From Minisyncoccota bacterium (GTDB taxonomy: Bacteria; Patescibacteriota; Minisyncoccia; Phycocordibacterales; UBA9973): a DNA stretch of 46,082 bases. Both the position numbers and the translations under genes were made by a program. A model generated the notes under the pieces. That model saw nothing but the letters and a program-made list of their open reading frames with translations. It was not told the DNA's origin and did no database searches. The number at the start of each line of letters is the position of its first letter. Positions within the stretch are counted from its first letter, which is position 1. Positions 3,046 to 38,438 of the stretch are shown here, one piece after another. The stretch is from positions 1-46,082 of the forward strand of contig JBAYHW010000006.1 of assembly GCA_041665925.1 (NCBI GenBank), given 5' to 3'.

Positions 3046-3960
3046 ATGAGGAAATCAACCCAAAATTTATTAGATGCTATAGGCAACACACCTTTAATAA
3101 GAGTCTCGTTCAAAACTAAGGGGGAAATTTTTGCAAAATTGGAATATTTAAACCCCGGAGGTAGCATCAAGGATCGTTCTGCTCTTTTTATAATTGAGGA
3201 AGCTGAACAAAAAGGTTGGTTGAAAAAGGGCGGTACAATCATTGAGTCTTCATCGGGCAACCAGGGAGTTGCCTGCGCAATGATAGGCGCACTCAAAGGT
3301 TACAAAGTCATTATTACTGCTTCTCCTGCAATGAGCGAGGAAAAAGTAAAAACAATAATGGCTTACGGAGCAAAGGTCATACACTGTCCTGCTGTGCCAA
3401 TCCACGATCCAAAAAGTCGGCATAGTGTGGCTGTGGCACTAACTAAGAAAATAAAAAATTCTTTTATGCCGAACCAATATTTTAATCTTTCTAACCCTAA
3501 GGCTCATTATTCCACTTTAGGTCCCGAAATTTGGAGACAAACACAAGGTAAAATTACGCATTATTTCGGAGCAGCGGGTACTGGAGGAACTATCAGTGGC
3601 GTTGGAAAATTTTTAAAAGAAAAAAATACAAATATTAAAATTATGGCTGTTGATGTCGATACATCTTTCCACTCCACGGACGGCAATCCAAAACCCTACA
3701 GAATGGAAGGCATCGGCGTTGATTTTGATACTCCCTGCTTAGATGAATCCGTAATCGATGAATTTTTCAAGGTCTCTGATAAAGATGGTTTAGGAATGCT
3801 ACCTAAAATGGCTTCAGAGTACGGGTTACTGGTTGGCACAGGAAGCGGCGCGGTATCTTTTGCTGTGCAAAAATATTTAAAAAACCTCAAAAAGACTGAC
3901 GTCGTGGTTATGCTCTTCGGCGACTCTGGCCGCGCTTATTTATCTAAGAATTATTATTAA
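3046..3960 (+). CDS. cysK: PLP-dependent cysteine synthase / cystathionine beta-synthase family protein
   Basis: IGNTPL, KLEYLNPGGSIKDR (PLP lysine), SSGNQG, GTGGTISG, EGIG, DSGRAYLSK. Confidence 0.85.
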   Translation: MRKSTQNLLDAIGNTPLIRVSFKTKGEIFAKLEYLNPGGSIKDRSALFIIEEAEQKGWLKKGGTIIESSSGNQGVACAMIGALKGYKVIITASPAMSEEKVKTIMAYGAKVIHCPAVPIHDPKSRHSVAVALTKKIKNSFMPNQYFNLSNPKAHYSTLGPEIWRQTQGKITHYFGAAGTGGTISGVGKFLKEKNTNIKIMAVDVDTSFHSTDGNPKPYRMEGIGVDFDTPCLDESVIDEFFKVSDKDGLGMLPKMASEYGLLVGTGSGAVSFAVQKYLKNLKKTDVVVMLFGDSGRAYLSKNYY

Positions 3961-35418: not shown

Positions 35419-35595
35419 ATGAAAAACAAAGAATTTTATACTGCAAAAGACTTGGCTGACAAATTAGGAGTAAATATTATGACTATTTATCGTTATATAG
35501 GAGCTAAGAAACTCAAAGCATACAAGTTAGGAAAAGAATTTAGGATTGAGAAAAAGGACTTCAACAACTTCCTTAATAAAGTGAAAACAAGGTGA
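35419..35595 (+). CDS. Excisionase/MerR-like HTH DNA-binding protein (candidate recombination directionality factor)
   Basis: FYTAKDLADKLGVNIMTIYRYIGAKKLKAYKLGKEFRI; start MKNKEF at 35419. Confidence 0.85.
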   Translation: MKNKEFYTAKDLADKLGVNIMTIYRYIGAKKLKAYKLGKEFRIEKKDFNNFLNKVKTR

Positions 35596-36200
35596 TTTAT
35601 ATGCCGAGCAAAGGTTACAAAATGAGCAAGGAACATAAAGACGCTATATCTAAGGCGCTAAAGGGTCACGTCTCTTCTGAGGAAACTAGAAGAAAGATTG
35701 GTCTGGCTAATAGAGGTGTTTGGATAAAGTTCAATTGTGATTATTGCGGAAAAGAAAATGAAGAGAAACAATCACATTATAAGAAAAAGGTACGACATTT
35801 CTGTGATGCAAAATGCTATGCATCTTTCGTAAAAGAAAAACAGCCATTAGGTGAAAAGAACGCGTATAAGGGAGTAAGGAAGATTGGTGAAAACAAACAG
35901 GTTTATCATCGCAATTATGTAAAAAATCATCCAGAAAATATAGCTCACTTAAAAGCTCGAAGATATGCACGAGAGCGAAATGCTGAAGGCAGTCACACTT
36001 TGGCTGAGTGGATTGCATTAAAACTTAAATACGATAATAAATGCATTCATTGTAAAGAGTTTAAGCCACTCACAAAAGACCACATCTTACCTTTAGCAGA
36101 AGGAGGTACAGACTATATTCACAACATTCAACCCCTCTGTCGAAACTGCAATAGCAAGAAATGGAAGAAATTGGACTACGTTATTTCCCAAAAATTATGA
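35592..36200 (+). CDS. HNH endonuclease with N-terminal NUMOD3-like repeats and a Zn finger
   Basis: HKDAISKALKGHVSSEETRRKIG; CDYC; CIHC...TKDHILP...GGTDYIHNIQPLCRNCNSKK; start is GTG 35592 or ATG 35601. Confidence 0.85.
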   Translation: MIYMPSKGYKMSKEHKDAISKALKGHVSSEETRRKIGLANRGVWIKFNCDYCGKENEEKQSHYKKKVRHFCDAKCYASFVKEKQPLGEKNAYKGVRKIGENKQVYHRNYVKNHPENIAHLKARRYARERNAEGSHTLAEWIALKLKYDNKCIHCKEFKPLTKDHILPLAEGGTDYIHNIQPLCRNCNSKKWKKLDYVISQKL

Positions 36201-37705
36201 AAGCAATAAAAGTCTCACGCGTATCAACAGAAGAACAAAAAGAAGCTGGTAATTCACTCCCAGCTCAAATTAAACGTATAGATGATTATTGCAAAAGAAA
36301 GGGCTTTGAGGTCATTCGCTCTTTTAGTTTTGATGAGAGCGCTTACAAAGATAAACGGGATGAGTTTGATAAGTTGGTTGAATATGTCCAAGACATTGCG
36401 AAGAAAGAAAAAATAGCAGTTTGTTTTGATAAAGTAGACCGTCTTTCAAGAAGTGTTTTTGATTCAAGAGTGGGCACTTTATATCAAATGTCCGTAGAGG
36501 GAAAAATTGAGCTTCACTTTGTTTCTGACAACCAGGTTTTGAACGGTAGTTTATCTGCAACAGAGAAAGGTGGTTTTGGTATGAGTCTTGTGATGGCAAG
36601 CTATTATTCAAATGCAATTAGTGACAACGTAAAACGAGCATTTGAACAAAAACGCAGAAATGGTGAATGGACTGGAGGGGTACGCATAGGATACAAGAAT
36701 GTATCACTTGATGTTGAGAAGAGATTAAGAAAAGATATTATTCTTGACCCCGACAGAGCACATCTAGTTCAAATGATATTTGAGCTTTATGCCACTGGAA
36801 ATTATTCGATGGAGGCAATTCGGGTGAAGATTACTGAAATGGGATTAAGAACTCGTGACGGAAACGTTTTATCGAAGAGTGGAATAGAAAACATTTTGAA
36901 AGATAGTTTCTTTTGTGGGATTGCTGTATCAAAGAAATACAACCTGACTTGGGTTCATAATTATCCTCGCATCACTACAAGGGAGATATTTGATAAGTGT
37001 CAAGAACTACGAGCAAAACGAAAGACATCACGCCCAAAATCTCTCTCAAAGGATTTTATATTTAAGGGTTTACTTAAATGTCAGAACTGCGGATGCTCAA
37101 TGAGTGCTGAAATTAAAAAGGGGCGTTTTGTTTATTACTCCTGTACAAATGCAAAGCGTATTTGTAAACGAGTATATGTGCCTGAAAAGACACTCCTTGA
37201 GCCTGTGTACGAGCTTCTGGGACGCTTTGAGAGCATTAAAGAGGAAGTTCAAGATGGCCTGGTTAGGGAGCTAAGGAAGAACACAGAATCAGAGGTGGTT
37301 TTCCATAAAGCCCAGATAAGTCGTATCACCAGTGAATATGAACAGATAAAATCGAAAGATGACAGGTTGCTAGAAAGGTATCTTGAAGACAGCACGAGTA
37401 TTACTAAAGATATCTATGACAAAAAACATCAAGAATATGCTGATGCACTCCAGGTCCTAGAGATAGAACTTAGTGAAAATAGAAAAGCGGACTATGACTA
37501 CCAAACCACGGTAGCTACTGTGGTTTCTGTTGCTCGTCGCGCAAAGCAAATCTTTGAAGGTTCTGAACCATCTGAAAAACGAGCACTTTTAAACTATATA
37601 CTTCAGAACCCAACCGTAAACGAAAAGAAGCTATGTTTTTCAATAGCTTCTCCGTTCAATCTAGTCCTAGACCTAGCTGATAGTCCTATTTGGCTCCGGG
37701 GGTAG
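36197..37705 (+). CDS. Large serine recombinase (integrase); 3' end reads into the tRNA
   Basis: RVSTEEQ catalytic motif, DKVDRLSR, recombinase domain, CQNC...YYSC Zn ribbon, coiled coil; ends TGG CTC CGG GGG TAG antisense to the tRNA 3' end. Confidence 0.93.
   Translation: MKAIKVSRVSTEEQKEAGNSLPAQIKRIDDYCKRKGFEVIRSFSFDESAYKDKRDEFDKLVEYVQDIAKKEKIAVCFDKVDRLSRSVFDSRVGTLYQMSVEGKIELHFVSDNQVLNGSLSATEKGGFGMSLVMASYYSNAISDNVKRAFEQKRRNGEWTGGVRIGYKNVSLDVEKRLRKDIILDPDRAHLVQMIFELYATGNYSMEAIRVKITEMGLRTRDGNVLSKSGIENILKDSFFCGIAVSKKYNLTWVHNYPRITTREIFDKCQELRAKRKTSRPKSLSKDFIFKGLLKCQNCGCSMSAEIKKGRFVYYSCTNAKRICKRVYVPEKTLLEPVYELLGRFESIKEEVQDGLVRELRKNTESEVVFHKAQISRITSEYEQIKSKDDRLLERYLEDSTSITKDIYDKKHQEYADALQVLEIELSENRKADYDYQTTVATVVSVARRAKQIFEGSEPSEKRALLNYILQNPTVNEKKLCFSIASPFNLVLDLADSPIWLRG
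37689..37697. repeat. tRNA-proximal att core (9-bp direct repeat)
   Basis: TTTGGCTCC, overlapping the tRNA-Asn GGAGCCA 3' end and the integrase W-L codons. Confidence 0.8.
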
Positions 37706-37731
37706 GGATCGAACCTACGACCAATCGCTTA

Positions 37732-38286
37732 CACTTATCCTCTTATTACTAAAAGGGATGGACTATATCATCTTCATATTTTGAAAATAAAATTTTCAAA
37801 ACTTAGAAGCAAGGCGCTTCGACTGATTTTGAATCAGGCTACTCCTCGAAAGGATAGTCTCTGAACCTGCCCTAAACTTTAGGGATTGGCTGCTGATTGC
37901 CCTCTGGTGAGGGTTTCCAGCAATTCACCTTGTTTTCGATCTATTTTTCAATAGAAAGCTGCGTTATACCTGACTCGACTTCTCTGTGACAATTTGCACA
38001 AAGTAGCACACACTTATATAATTCTTTTTGCACGATACTCCACGCACGAGTGTATCCCTTATCACCAACCCCAAAACTTTTATCTTTGGAATTTATATGG
38101 TGAAGTTCAAGGGCACCAATACATTTTGTATATCCACAAATTTGGCATTTGCCGCCTTTGTATTCAACTGCAAGAACTTTTATTTTCTTGCGTCGTTTTG
38201 CAACAGCTTTAATAAGTGCTTCTCGTCTATCGGCATATTTCCTATTATCTGGCATAAATCTATCATACCAAAGGGTGGAAATTTCC
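37732..38286 (-). ncRNA. Group I intron, 555 nt, at anticodon position 35/36
   Basis: 5' exon ends in U and the intron ends in G. P AAUUGCUGGAAA (37925-37914), Q AAUCAGCAGC (37898-37889), R GUUCAGAGACUA (37866-37855), S AUGAUAUAGUCC (37771-37760); IGS GCAG (37962-37959) pairs with exon CUGU with a U-G pair at the splice site. Confidence 0.92.
37941..38255 (-). CDS. Intron-encoded HNH homing endonuclease
   Basis: CQICGY...LELHH...CVLLCANCHRE; lies in the L1 loop, and its last codons encode the IGS; ATG 38255 preferred over GTG 38288. Confidence 0.85.
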   Translation of the reverse strand: MPDNRKYADRREALIKAVAKRRKKIKVLAVEYKGGKCQICGYTKCIGALELHHINSKDKSFGVGDKGYTRAWSIVQKELYKCVLLCANCHREVESGITQLSIEK

Positions 38287-38438
38287 ACAGGCGACCGCTC
38301 TACCGCTGAGCTACCCCGGAATTTATTCTTTTTTCTAAGGAACTTTACCTATATTATCAGAAAACACAGAAAAAACAACAAAATTTGTGCCCCTTCCCTG
38401 ACCACAAATCCTTTATGAATATGATGTATAATAGAAAC

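What the first reader, a model, noticed from the sequence alone, without database searches (positions are those of the whole stretch)
37691..38320. Hidden tRNA-Asn split at 35/36 by a group I intron whose guide sequence is encoded inside an HNH gene
Seen: a complete cloverleaf after splicing and all P/Q/R/S elements. The IGS (GCAG) lies about 325 nt from the 5' splice site, within the HNH codons ACG CAG, so the ORF tail doubles as ribozyme structure. Standard tRNA scanners would probably miss this gene. Classic bacterial tRNA group I introns are in Leu, fMet, Ile and Arg tRNAs; I recall 35/36 Asn/Asp introns being reported for Patescibacteria, so the site itself may not be new.
Basis: partly seen in the sequence, partly recalled or inferred. 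Interest (0 to 1): 0.68.

Follow-up and report, generated by a model that had tools for sequence, protein, structure and literature searches.

The report
Self-splicing intron hidden in tRNA-Asn

Summary
On the minus strand, a tRNA-Asn(GUU) gene (38320-37691) is split between nucleotides 35 and 36 by a 555-nt group I intron (38286-37732; Rfam RF00028, 88.4 bits). A 104-aa HNH gene sits in the P1 loop. The guide sequence (CGCAG, 37963-37959; intron +325) lies in its codons ACG CAG, and its stop codon lies in P2.

Sixty-eight of the 80 related loci examined, nearly all Patescibacteria MAGs, have the same layout. Covariation supports P1 (the +1 pair switches G-C/A-U), P2, P4-P6, P8, P9.0 and the anticodon stem across the exons. 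Fifty-two metagenome contigs carry an uninterrupted tRNA-Asn gene identical to the predicted ligated exons. Three loci have an ORF-less intron with a compact P1 hairpin ending in the same GCAG, and the HNH gene free-standing just upstream.

Phage relatives of the HNH are free-standing and lie preferentially next to tRNA-Asn genes. A conserved TGnTATAAT box 6-8 nt before the ATG suggests the HNH gene has its own promoter and a leaderless mRNA.

There is a direct precedent: the Synechocystis tRNA-fMet intron has its endonuclease ORF in P1, overlapping P1/P2. So this is a new member (new tRNA, site, nuclease family and phylum) of a known kind. Splicing itself is untested.

The parts
38287..38320 (-). 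tRNA-Asn(GUU) 5' exon (positions 1-35; ends C32 U33 G34 U35)
   Evidence: Sequence. The same exon type is seen in 68 loci. The ligated product is called tRNA-Asn(gtt).
37732..38286 (-). Group I intron, 555 nt, ending in the terminal G (omega-G) at 37732
   Evidence: RF00028 at 88.4 bits over 38019-37739. Structure counts on 70 homologues give 89.8% of cells paired against 69.8% in shuffles.
37691..37731 (-). tRNA-Asn 3' exon (U36 to discriminator G73, plus encoded CCA at 37693-37691)
   Evidence: The anticodon stem across the two exons is 97% paired, with 4 of 5 pairs showing compensatory changes.
38286..38290 (-). P1 5' strand: C32 U33 G34 U35 | G(+1); the 5' splice site is between 38287 and 38286
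   Evidence: Four exon pairs are invariant in 61/61 distinct sequences, including U.G at the splice site. The +1 pair is G-C 43, A-U 11, other 7.
37959..37963 (-). Internal guide sequence / P1 3' strand, CGCAG (G37962 = intron +325), inside HNH codons ACG CAG
   Evidence: The same GCAG sits 5-9 nt after the splice site in ORF-less introns.
37964..38285 (-). L1, the 322-nt loop of P1, holding the HNH promoter-like box and most of the HNH ORF
   Evidence: Follows from the P1 assignment. The loop is only 4-5 nt in the ORF-less relatives L048, L035 and L077.
37941..38255 (-). HNH endonuclease ORF, 104 aa (ATG 38255; stop TAG 37943-37941). Motifs: C37-x2-C40, H52-H53, C86-x2-C89-H90
   Evidence: PHROG phrog_2255 'HNH endonuclease', E 1.3e-26. 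Pfam HNH 20.6 bits, just under its 21.4 cut-off. H52, H53, C40, C86, C89 and H90 are invariant in 70 aligned homologues.
38262..38270 (-). TGG-TATGAT, an extended -10-like box 6 nt upstream of the HNH ATG (inferred internal promoter, leaderless mRNA)
   Evidence: A perfect TATAAT lies within 22 nt of the ATG in 53/70 loci and a 5-of-6 or better match in 62/70, mostly 6-8 nt from the ATG. TG precedes it in 46/62. Only 1.06% of control windows contain TATAAT.
37940..37955 (-). P2 hairpin UCUAUU-GAAA-AAUAGA (GAAA tetraloop); its 3' strand contains the HNH stop codon
   Evidence: 6/6 pairs show compensatory changes and 98.1% of cells are paired. Also in the minimum-energy fold.
37926..37932 (-). 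P3 5' strand (CAAGGUG); pairs with 37816-37810
   Evidence: 90.3% paired; 2 pairs compensatory..
37892..37921 (-). P4-P5 domain (P4 37921-37917 / 37896-37892; P5 37913-37909 / 37904-37900)
   Evidence: P4 is 99.4% paired with 4/5 pairs compensatory; P5 has 4/5 compensatory..
37870..37884 (-). P6 hairpin (CCCUAA / UUAGGG)
   Evidence: 6/6 pairs compensatory..
37855..37859 (-). P7 5' strand (GACUA, within CAGAGACUA); pairs with UAGUC at 37765-37761. This is the guanosine-binding helix
   Evidence: Invariant in 69/69 sequences, so it gives no covariation information. Matches the Rfam consensus.
37823..37854 (-). Two extra hairpins between P7 and the 3' strand of P3 (P7.1-like 37854-37843; P7.2-like 37837-37823)
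   Evidence: 3/4 and 5/5 pairs compensatory. Absent in the subclass L034, L043, L046, L047, L053, L064, L076.
37772..37816 (-). P3 3' strand (37816-37810) and P8 (outer 37809-37806 / 37775-37772; inner 37801-37792 / 37788-37779)
   Evidence: P8 outer 3/4 pairs compensatory, inner 10/10..
37732..37765 (-). P7 3' strand (37765-37761); the two nucleotides after P7, A37759 and U37758, which form P9.0 with G37734 and U37733; P9 (37756-37739, GUAA tetraloop); omega-G at 37732
   Evidence: P9.0 has 2/2 pairs compensatory and is 100% paired (A-U 35 / G-C 34; U-A 46 / C-G 17 / U-G 6). This fixes the 3' splice site.

Best explanation

How it most likely works:
- The pre-tRNA is transcribed from the tRNA promoter.
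- The last four exon nucleotides (C32 U33 G34 U35) and the first intron nucleotide pair with the guide sequence CGCAG, 325 nt downstream. This forms a 5-bp P1 with the canonical U.G wobble at the splice site.
- The 322 nt in between are an oversized P1 loop. The rest of the ribozyme (P2 with a GAAA loop, P3-P8, P9 with a GNRA loop, a two-pair P9.0, terminal G) folds downstream.
- An exogenous guanosine attacks after U35. Then the 3' OH of U35 attacks after the terminal G at 37732, joining CCUGU to UAAGCG.
- The anticodon stem formed between the two exons probably holds the splice sites together, since P10 is weak.

The P1 loop carries a small HNH nuclease gene. Its last codons are the guide sequence, J1/2 and P2 ('core creep'). 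The gene most likely has its own extended -10 promoter, placed so that transcription starts at or next to the ATG. Translated (leaderless) mRNAs would then be separate molecules from the pre-tRNAs that must fold and splice.

The nuclease most likely cuts or nicks intron-less tRNA-Asn genes and drives homing of the intron.

Shown here: the anatomy, conservation and covariation of all helices including both splice-site helices, the existence of identical uninterrupted alleles, and the ORF-less form. Inferred: catalysis, promoter use, and nuclease activity and target.
For: - **Group I intron:** RF00028 full-length hit at 88.4 bits.
- **Same layout elsewhere:** 68/80 loci have the same split tRNA-Asn, with the intron always ending in G and the exons always ...CTGT | TAA....
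- **Ribozyme structure:** on 70 homologues, 89.8% of cells are paired against 69.8% in shuffles and 36-47% when partners are slid. Fifty-one pairs show changes on both sides. P2 is 6/6, P6 6/6 and P9.0 2/2 compensatory.
- **P1:** four invariant pairs including U.G, plus a covarying +1 pair (G-C 43 / A-U 11). A third state, C-G, occurs in L035.
- **Exon pairing:** the anticodon stem across the exons is 97% paired, with 4/5 pairs compensatory.
- **Product is a real gene:** 52 metagenome contigs hold an uninterrupted tRNA-Asn identical to the ligated exons. ARAGORN calls the ligated product tRNA-Asn(gtt).
- **ORF-less forms:** L048, L035 and L077 have compact P1 hairpins (CUGUAA-auua-UUGCAG and similar) ending in the same GCAG-CUU-P2 context.
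- **RNA constraint on the coding sequence:** Gln99 (CAG) is present in all intron-resident HNH genes but is Ser, Ser or Lys in the three free-standing ones.
- **The protein is an HNH nuclease:** PHROG E 1e-26, with invariant CxxC...HH...CxxCH. The ORF is intact in about 67 of 71 loci at 64-95% identity.
- **-10 box:** 76% of loci against 1% of control windows, also present before the free-standing copies in L035 and L048.
- **Target specificity:** phage relatives sit next to tRNA-Asn in 19 of 41 de-replicated clusters, against a 13% background.
- **Precedents:** an ORF in P1 overlapping P1/P2, and 'core creep' (PMC3073962).
Against: - No splicing, transcript or nuclease data exist for this element or any homologue.
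- P1 is only 5 bp and must form across 322 nt. Four of its five pairs are invariant for reasons unrelated to P1 (the anticodon loop), so direct covariation rests on one pair. That pair is unpaired in 7 of 61 distinct sequences (those with AGCAGC).
- P10 is weak and not conserved: U36 can pair in 49/71 loci and A37 in 31/71.
- The window's -10 box is TATGAT (5 of 6), with no good -35. The A/U-rich box could instead act at the RNA level.
- Only 46 kb of the genome is available, so a second, uninterrupted tRNA-Asn gene cannot be excluded.
- Related sequences are not independent, so shuffle statistics overstate significance.
Confidence: 0.85

Rival explanations
1. The HNH protein is translated from the pre-tRNA or from the excised intron RNA, not from an intron-internal promoter. 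On this view the conserved UAUAAU box is an RNA signal (for example an A/U-rich element that supports translation start without a Shine-Dalgarno sequence), or part of the L1 structure.
For: No Shine-Dalgarno sequence is visible before the ATG, and the box is A/U-rich. The simple promoter scan did not report this box with a matching -35. Intron ORFs are known to be expressed from host-gene transcripts under tight translational control (PMC3073962, PMC3984707).
Against: The motif matches the extended -10 consensus, TGnTATAAT, not just A/U richness: TG is present in 46/62 loci. It lies at a fixed 6-8 nt from the ATG, the distance expected between a -10 box and a start site. A similar box precedes the free-standing copies in L035 and L048, which need their own promoter. 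Ribosomes reading through the guide sequence and P2 on a pre-tRNA would block splicing.
Confidence: 0.3
2. P1 is formed with some other guide sequence close to the 5' splice site, for example the local hairpin GUGGAAAUUUCCAC at 38288-38275. On this view the distal GCAG is only coding sequence.
For: In the window, a 5-bp hairpin spans the splice site. Guide sequences normally lie within a few tens of nucleotides of the splice site.
Against: That hairpin pairs the splice-site U with A, not G. It is conserved only in the closest relatives. No other conserved complement to CUGU exists in the first 30 nt. The distal GCAG is invariant, sits immediately 5' of P2 where a guide sequence belongs, covaries with intron +1, and is the P1 3' strand in the ORF-less introns.
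Confidence: 0.03
3. The gene is a dead, disrupted tRNA-Asn (pseudogene) with a decaying intron, and the cell uses another tRNA-Asn copy.
For: Only 46 kb of the genome is visible and no other tRNA-Asn can be looked for. Some homologues have broken HNH ORFs (L024).
Against: Compensatory changes in every testable helix, in both splice-site helices and in the tRNA's own anticodon stem across 60-70 species show long-term selection for a foldable ribozyme and a functional ligated tRNA. The window copy has every helix, the terminal G and the HNH ORF intact.
Confidence: 0.03
4. The HNH protein is mainly a splicing helper (maturase) or has some other host role, rather than being a homing endonuclease.
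For: The protein is very small (104 aa) and has no recognisable sequence-specific DNA-binding module. The long L1 might need help to close P1. The best, non-significant matches among solved structures are the nuclease domains of group II intron maturases.
Against: ORF-less introns of the same family exist, with the HNH gene outside the intron. Catalytic and zinc-binding residues are invariant. Uninterrupted and interrupted alleles with identical exons coexist. Free-standing phage relatives sit beside intron-less tRNA-Asn genes, which fits a DNA target rather than an RNA-folding role.
Confidence: 0.08

Closest known systems
Synechocystis sp. PCC 6803 tRNA-fMet group I intron encoding I-Ssp6803I
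   Same: [quoted passage not shown] The endonuclease ORF is inserted in P1 and runs into ribozyme structure: Table 1 of PMC3073962 lists insertion site P1, a 61-nt overlap, and elements P1/P2. The intron makes tRNA scanners miss the gene (PMC8450103).
   Different: The host tRNA is fMet, not Asn. The nuclease is a PD-(D/E)XK enzyme of 150 codons, not a 104-aa HNH (PMC1995217). It is cyanobacterial and sporadic, whereas this family has relatives of its nuclease in 374 species-representative genomes. Here the overlap length varies from 13 to 130 nt beyond the guide G among homologues.
Classic bacterial tRNA group I introns of subgroup IC3 (Azoarcus tRNA-Ile, Anabaena/cyanobacterial tRNA-Leu(UAA), Agrobacterium tRNA-Arg)
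   Same: A small ribozyme in the anticodon loop, with P2 capped by GAAA, P9 capped by a GNRA loop and a two-pair P9.0. From memory only, the core strings AAUUCGGnGAAACC, CCGAGCCAAGC and GAAGGUGUAGAGACUA resemble the Azoarcus intron. The Anabaena intron depends on the exon-exon anticodon stem (Zaug et al. 1993, as cited in PMC3984707).
   Different: Those introns are ORF-less and have a compact P1. From my own knowledge, their insertion sites are 34/35 (Leu) or after nucleotide 36 (Ile, Arg), not 35/36. Most members here have two extra hairpins between P7 and the 3' strand of P3, which the Azoarcus intron lacks (from memory). Subgroup membership was not testable here.
Phage group I introns encoding HNH endonucleases (I-HmuI of Bacillus phage SPO1, I-TwoI, I-BasI, I-PfoP3I)
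   Same: A group I intron plus an HNH-family homing endonuclease. The ORF overlaps the ribozyme in SPO1 (9 nt in P8; PMC3073962 Table 1).
   Different: Those introns interrupt protein-coding genes (DNA polymerase, nrdE). Their ORFs sit in P8 or other loops, and the enzymes are larger, with extra DNA-binding modules. The 2014 review states that all phage introns known then were in protein-coding genes despite many phage tRNA genes (PMC3984707).
Free-standing homing endonucleases that target intron insertion sites or tRNA clusters (phage T4 SegB in the tRNA gene cluster; 'collaborative homing' of an ORF-less intron with a neighbouring free-standing nuclease)
   Same: L035, L048 and L077 have the HNH gene just upstream of a tRNA-Asn that carries an ORF-less intron. 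Phage relatives are free-standing genes in tRNA arrays next to tRNA-Asn. SegB is a nuclease gene within the T4 tRNA cluster (PMC2330249).
   Different: SegB is a GIY-YIG enzyme. The collaborative-homing examples (cyanophage psbA, phage T3-like DNA polymerase) are recalled from memory and involve protein-coding genes. No activity has been tested for any member here.

Membership tests
Group I intron (Rfam RF00028) | Conserved core helices P3-P8 with the P/Q/R/S elements, scored by a covariance model | tested here: met
   88.4 bits against a gathering score of 50, E 2e-21, model positions 1-253 of 253. The helices are confirmed by covariation on 70 homologues.
Group I intron (Rfam RF00028) | 5' splice site after a U that forms a U.G wobble with an internal guide sequence (P1) | tested here: met
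   U35.G37962 is present in 61/61 distinct sequences. The neighbouring +1 pair covaries, G-C 43 / A-U 11. ORF-less relatives form a compact P1 hairpin with the same GCAG.
Group I intron (Rfam RF00028) | Intron ends in G (omega-G), positioned by P9.0 and/or P10 | tested here: met
   All 68 complete introns end in G. P9.0 has 2/2 covarying pairs and is 100% paired. P10 itself is weak and not conserved.
Group I intron (Rfam RF00028) | Self-splicing by two guanosine-initiated transesterifications | not testable with these tools
   Needs an in vitro splicing assay. It is inferred here from conservation only.
Subgroup IC3 (bacterial tRNA introns) | The peripheral architecture and core sequence signature of IC3 | not testable with these tools
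The GAAA loop on P2 and the GNRA loop on P9 are present. The resemblance to the Azoarcus core is from memory. The extra hairpins between P7 and P3' are atypical.
tRNA-Asn | Cloverleaf with anticodon GUU after exon ligation | tested here: met
   ARAGORN calls the ligated exons tRNA-Asn(gtt), 75 nt. Identical uninterrupted genes occur in 52 metagenome contigs. The discriminator is G73 and CCA is encoded.
HNH endonuclease superfamily | Sequence match to HNH profiles, with the catalytic His and the zinc-binding Cys pairs | tested here: met
   PHROG phrog_2255, E 1.3e-26. Pfam PF01844 scores 20.6 bits, just below its 21.4 cut-off. C40, H52, H53, C86, C89 and H90 are invariant and C37 is at least 90% conserved in 70 homologues. 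No structure was predicted.
Homing endonuclease (mobile intron) | Interrupted and uninterrupted alleles of the same target coexist | tested here: met
   At least 120 metagenome contigs have the uninterrupted junction, and 52 are identical to the window's exons. By contrast, 68 genome loci have the intron.
Homing endonuclease (mobile intron) | Site-specific cleavage of the intron-less allele near the insertion site | not testable with these tools
   Needs protein expression and a cleavage assay. The indirect support is that phage relatives lie beside tRNA-Asn genes in 19 of 41 clusters, against a 13% background.
Endonuclease ORF overlapping the ribozyme core ('core creep', PMC3073962) | The 3' extension of the ORF into the ribozyme varies in length among homologues, and the added tail is not conserved as protein | tested here: met
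   The stop codon lies 13 to 130 nt past the guide G across the loci, most often 19 nt (32 loci). The tails are unrelated in sequence beyond ...CHREVEAGITQLP.

The most novel reading that the evidence does not exclude
This may be an essentially undescribed family: a lineage-wide group I intron in what is probably the only tRNA-Asn gene of hundreds of Patescibacteria species. Those cells would then depend on self-splicing to read Asn codons.

The same HNH gene cassette (extended -10 box plus a leaderless ORF) is caught in three contexts: free-standing beside tRNA-Asn in phage tRNA arrays, free-standing upstream of an ORF-less intron, and inside the P1 loop with the guide sequence recruited into its coding region. 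Uninterrupted (intron-less) tRNA-Asn alleles exist as well. Together these would form a natural series showing how a mobile group I intron is born and how 'core creep' proceeds.
Probability: 0.45. Interest if true: 0.6.

Novelty: new member of a known kind. Interest (0 to 1): 0.45.

Why it matters
**Annotation.** The tRNA-Asn gene of many Patescibacteria genomes is invisible to ARAGORN and tRNAscan-SE, or is misnamed tRNA-Thr when introns are allowed. This distorts tRNA complements, completeness checks and claims about missing decoding capacity. Rfam's group I model also misses one structural subclass at its gathering score.

**Biology.** If it is the only tRNA-Asn gene, translation in these reduced genomes depends on a ribozyme.

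**Evolution.** The family offers many natural variants for testing three things:
- how a 5-bp P1 closes across about 320 nt;
- how a coding sequence and a guide sequence share nucleotides;
- the published models for the origin of mobile introns (a free-standing nuclease invading an intron, followed by core creep).

The variants include uninterrupted alleles, ORF-less introns, ORF-containing introns, introns with and without the two extra hairpins, and stop codons at many positions. The small HNH enzyme with an apparent tRNA-Asn gene specificity is also a candidate for biochemical study.

Tried and rejected
- **GTG 38288 as the HNH start** (the 115-aa ORF): rejected. Homologues align from ATG 38255, and the upstream part is exon and splice site.
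- **Local hairpin GUGGAAAUUUCCAC (38288-38275) as P1 or as a terminator:** it pairs the splice-site U with A, is not conserved beyond close relatives, and its T-run is weak.
- **An alternative P1 register** using the upstream CAG in the ACAGCAGC variants: inconsistent across loci.
- **P10 between U36 A37 A38 and the nucleotides 5' of the guide sequence:** only 1-3 possible pairs and not conserved. The exon-exon anticodon stem is the better candidate for aligning the 3' exon.
- **My first structure string for P1** was off by two columns. It was corrected.
- **Subgroup assignment:** Rfam has one model. The Azoarcus sequence could not be retrieved from the held paper, and PMC179611 is not held.
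- **Group I introns in the phage loci that lacked a detectable tRNA-Asn:** none found in 20 loci.
- **Protein matches outside PHROGs:** NCBIfam and solved structures gave nothing significant for the HNH.
- **Literature:** nine searches found no description of a tRNA-Asn group I intron or of this family. The only hit is a passing remark on CPR tRNA introns. Subscription journals are not covered, so absence is not proven.
- **Not run:** structure prediction and the large protein searches, because the HNH assignment did not depend on them.


Full report
**1. What is in the sequence**

Read on the minus strand, 38320-38287 is TCCGGGGTAGCTCAGCGGTAGAGCGGTCGCCTGT: an acceptor strand, D arm and the 5' half of an anticodon arm, ending C32 U33 G34 U35. 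37731-37691 is TAAGCGATTGGTCGTAGGTTCGATCCCTACCCCCGGAGCCA: U36 A37 A38, the 3' half of the anticodon stem, the variable loop, the T arm, the acceptor strand, discriminator G and CCA.

Joined together, these give a 75-nt cloverleaf that ARAGORN calls tRNA-Asn(gtt).

The 555 nt between them (38286-37732) start with G and end with G. Rfam's group I model matches 38019-37739(-) over its full length at 88.4 bits, E 2e-21. It is the only RNA family hit in the window besides a tRNA-Ala.

ARAGORN in default mode finds only that tRNA-Ala. With introns allowed it finds the split gene, but it puts the intron in the wrong place and names the gene tRNA-Thr(tgt). The authors of tRNAscan-SE state that it was not designed to detect group I introns (PMC8450103).

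**2. The intron's open reading frame**

The in-frame ATG at 38255 opens a 104-aa ORF that ends at TAG 37943-37941.
- It matches phage HNH endonuclease families: phrog_2255, E 1.3e-26.
- It scores just under Pfam's HNH cut-off, 20.6 against 21.4 bits.
- It carries C37-x2-C40, H52-H53 and C86-x2-C89-H90. Five of those residues plus C40 are invariant in 70 homologues.

The mechanical ORF list starts this frame at GTG 38288, inside the exon. That is an artefact of the list.

**3. Where the guide sequence is**

Immediately 5' of a clear P2 hairpin (UCUAUU-GAAA-AAUAGA, 37955-37940) lies CGCAG (37963-37959). It can pair with C32 U33 G34 U35 | G+1, giving C-G, U-A, G-C, U.G and G-C. The G that pairs with the splice-site U is 37962, which is intron position +325. 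It is the third base of codon ACG (Thr98), and CAG is Gln99.

P1 has a 322-nt loop that contains the HNH gene. The gene's last codons are the guide sequence, J1/2 and P2, and its stop codon is in the 3' strand of P2.

**4. Comparative test**

A scan of one genome per species (GTDB) with the HNH protein found 374 relatives. The best 80 loci come almost entirely from Patescibacteria-type MAGs labelled Paceibacterota, Nomurabacteria, Taylorbacteria, Kaiserbacteria and so on. A few carry labels such as Simkania or Gammaproteobacteria, which probably reflect binning errors.

In 68 of the 80 loci the same arrangement is complete: a tRNA-Asn 5' exon ending CTGT, an intron of 498-647 nt ending in G, and a 3' exon starting TAA. 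The rest are cut by contig ends, or are the three special cases in section 6.

The guide G lies at intron +299 to +354. It is at codon position 3 of the HNH frame in 71 of 71 sequences, counting the window.

Pair counts on an alignment of the region from the guide sequence to the 3' exon (70 sequences) give 89.8% standard pairs. Shuffles give 69.8%, and sliding the partners gives 36-47%. Compensatory changes are seen in P2 (6/6 pairs), P4 (4/5), P5 (4/5), P6 (6/6), the two extra hairpins (3/4 and 5/5) and P8. P7 is invariant, so it says nothing either way.

Both splice sites are supported separately:
- **P9.0.** The two nucleotides after P7 pair with the two nucleotides before the terminal G. 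This helix is 100% paired, with A-U 35 / G-C 34 and U-A 46 / C-G 17 / U-G 6. That fixes the 3' splice site.
- **P1.** The four exon pairs are invariant in 61 of 61 distinct sequences, as they must be because the anticodon loop is fixed. The pair between the first intron nucleotide and the base before GCAG switches between G-C (43) and A-U (11), with 7 unpaired. That switch changes the encoded amino acid (Thr to Leu or Met), so RNA pairing overrides the protein here.

The anticodon stem, split between the two exons, is 97% paired, with compensatory changes in four of five pairs. So the ligated tRNA is under selection.

The window's ribozyme part alone folds into P2, P3, P4, P5, P6, P8 and P9, with z = -4.46.

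**5. The ligated product exists as an ordinary gene**

Fifty-two of them carry an uninterrupted tRNA-Asn gene identical over 72 nt to the window's ligated exons. None has the HNH gene nearby.

This confirms the junction CCTGT|TAAGCG. It also shows that interrupted and uninterrupted alleles of the same target coexist, as expected for a mobile intron.

**6. ORF-less introns settle the identity of P1**

In L048, L077 and L035 the HNH gene lies just upstream of the tRNA-Asn gene. The intron at the same 35/36 site has no ORF. There, P1 is a compact hairpin:
- L048: CUGUAA-auua-UUGCAG
- L077: CUGUA-gaaaa-UGCAG
- L035: CUGUC-gguua-GGCAG, a third state (C-G) of the +1 pair

In each, the hairpin is followed by the same CUU-P2 context. 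In these free-standing genes the residue that corresponds to Gln99 (CAG in every intron-resident copy) is Ser, Ser or Lys. So the CAG is held by the RNA, not by the protein.

**7. Expression of the HNH gene (inferred)**

A TATAAT box lies within 22 nt upstream of the ATG in 53 of 70 loci, and a 5-of-6 or better match in 62. It is mostly 6-8 nt from the ATG and is preceded by TG in 46 of 62. TATAAT occurs in only 1.06% of control windows of the same loci.

The window has TGG-TATGAT at 38270-38262, 6 nt from the ATG. No Shine-Dalgarno sequence is visible. The free-standing copies in L035 and L048 keep a similar box.

The simplest reading is an extended -10 promoter that yields a leaderless HNH mRNA. 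Ribosomes would then not run through the guide sequence and P2 of the pre-tRNAs that must splice. This is an inference, and the rival (translation from the pre-tRNA or the excised intron) remains open.

The stop codon lies anywhere from 13 to 130 nt past the guide G in different species, and the added tails are unrelated in sequence. This is what the published 'core creep' model predicts (PMC3073962).

**8. Likely target of the nuclease**

Relatives at 43-61% identity occur in 226 viral contigs as free-standing genes within phage tRNA arrays. After de-replication to 49 clusters, the nearest tRNA is tRNA-Asn(GTT) in 19 of the 41 clusters that have any tRNA nearby. tRNA-Asn makes up only 13% of the tRNAs in those stretches.

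This points to the tRNA-Asn gene as the DNA target of the whole clade. No cleavage data exist.

**9. Comparison with what is known**

Group I introns in bacterial tRNA anticodon loops are classic: Leu, fMet, Ile and Arg, described as 'four different tRNA genes' in PMC1995217.

An endonuclease ORF inserted in P1 and overlapping P1/P2 by 61 nt is tabulated for the Synechocystis tRNA-fMet intron (PMC3073962, Table 1). ORFs that overlap the ribozyme core, with tightly controlled expression, are reviewed in PMC3984707.

That CPR tRNAs can carry group I introns is mentioned in passing in PMC8172020.

What appears to be new here:
- the host tRNA (Asn) and the 35/36 site;
- an HNH enzyme in this position;
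- the breadth across Patescibacteria;
- two structural subclasses, with or without two hairpins between P7 and the 3' strand of P3. The subclass without them falls below Rfam's gathering score;
- the coexistence of uninterrupted, ORF-less and ORF-containing states.

I found no paper describing this family in nine searches. Subscription journals are not covered, so I rate it a new member of a known kind, not a new kind.

The core looks like subgroup IC3: a GAAA loop on P2, a GNRA loop on P9, a two-pair P9.0, and core strings that I recall from the Azoarcus intron. Subgroup membership could not be tested with the tools at hand.

**10. Limits**

- Nothing here shows catalysis, transcripts or nuclease activity.
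- P1 covariation rests on one variable pair.
- P10 is weak.
- A second tRNA-Asn gene elsewhere in the source genome cannot be excluded from 46 kb.
- The homologues are related to one another, so the shuffle controls overstate independence.

**Verdict**

The mechanism is well founded on comparative evidence. Novelty is modest and practical value is real. Interest 0.45.

Noticed in passing
window 35592-37705 (+): A 202-aa ORF with NUMOD3 + HNH_5 domains (35592-36200) is followed by a 514-aa large serine recombinase (36161-37705; Resolvase, Recombinase and Zn_ribbon_recom domains). The recombinase's last 15 nt overlap the 3' end of the tRNA-Asn gene on the opposite strand. A similar recombinase abuts both intron-containing tRNA-Asn genes (L027, L038, L040, L050) and intron-less ones (L086, L130, L159). 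It therefore looks like a separate integrative element or a conserved neighbour of tRNA-Asn, independent of the intron.
   Followed up: partly
L048:3001-3680, L077:3001-3660, L035:2998-3610: In these Patescibacteria loci the HNH gene is free-standing, immediately upstream of a tRNA-Asn gene whose 35/36 intron has no ORF and a compact P1 hairpin. This is an intermediate or derived state relative to the ORF-in-P1 form.
   Followed up: yes
L201-L280 (IMG/VR viral contigs): Relatives of the intron HNH (43-61% identity) are free-standing genes inside phage tRNA gene arrays, preferentially next to tRNA-Asn(GTT). tRNA-Asn is the nearest tRNA in 19 of 41 de-replicated clusters, against 13% of the tRNAs present. 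No group I intron was found in the 20 loci checked.
   Followed up: partly
L230:1821-1941: A phage tRNA-Asn-like gene directly downstream of an HNH relative carries a 48-nt insert at exactly the same 35/36 site (...GGCTGT | AGGAAATTCGG...TTTCCGCGAG | TAACCGG...). The insert ends in G and has complementary ends. It is far too short to be a group I ribozyme. It could be a degenerate remnant, a different kind of intervening sequence, or a disabled gene.
   Followed up: no
L203:1764-1850, L204:1084-1170, L269:1790-1876, L244:1318-1406, L258:1031-1118: Phage tRNA arrays near the HNH relatives contain 83-89-nt tRNAs with a long variable arm (the shape of Tyr, Ser or Leu tRNAs in bacteria) but a GUU (Asn) anticodon. 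Their anticodon loop differs from that of bacterial tRNA-Tyr by one base (CUGUUAA against CUGUAAA, the latter from my own knowledge).
   Followed up: no
L034, L053, L035 (also L043, L046, L047, L064, L076): A structural subclass of the same intron family lacks the two hairpins between P7 and the 3' strand of P3 and has a different P3/P4 sequence (GGGAUAACGGUG). Rfam RF00028 does not reach its gathering score on the three loci tested, so this subclass is invisible to both tRNA scanners and the standard intron model.
   Followed up: partly
L024:3001-3311: In this locus the HNH ORF is broken near its start: the protein match begins only at 3087, and the frame from the expected start stops after 3 codons. 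Yet the ribozyme and exons look intact, as expected for decay of the nuclease gene after the intron became fixed.
   Followed up: no
window 38321-38340 (-) and the equivalent positions in L001-L011: A conserved A/T-rich string (AATATAT or GAATAAAT) lies directly against the first nucleotide of the tRNA gene in many loci. It is too close to the mature 5' end to be a standard -10 box for a transcript with a leader. Its role was not examined.
   Followed up: no
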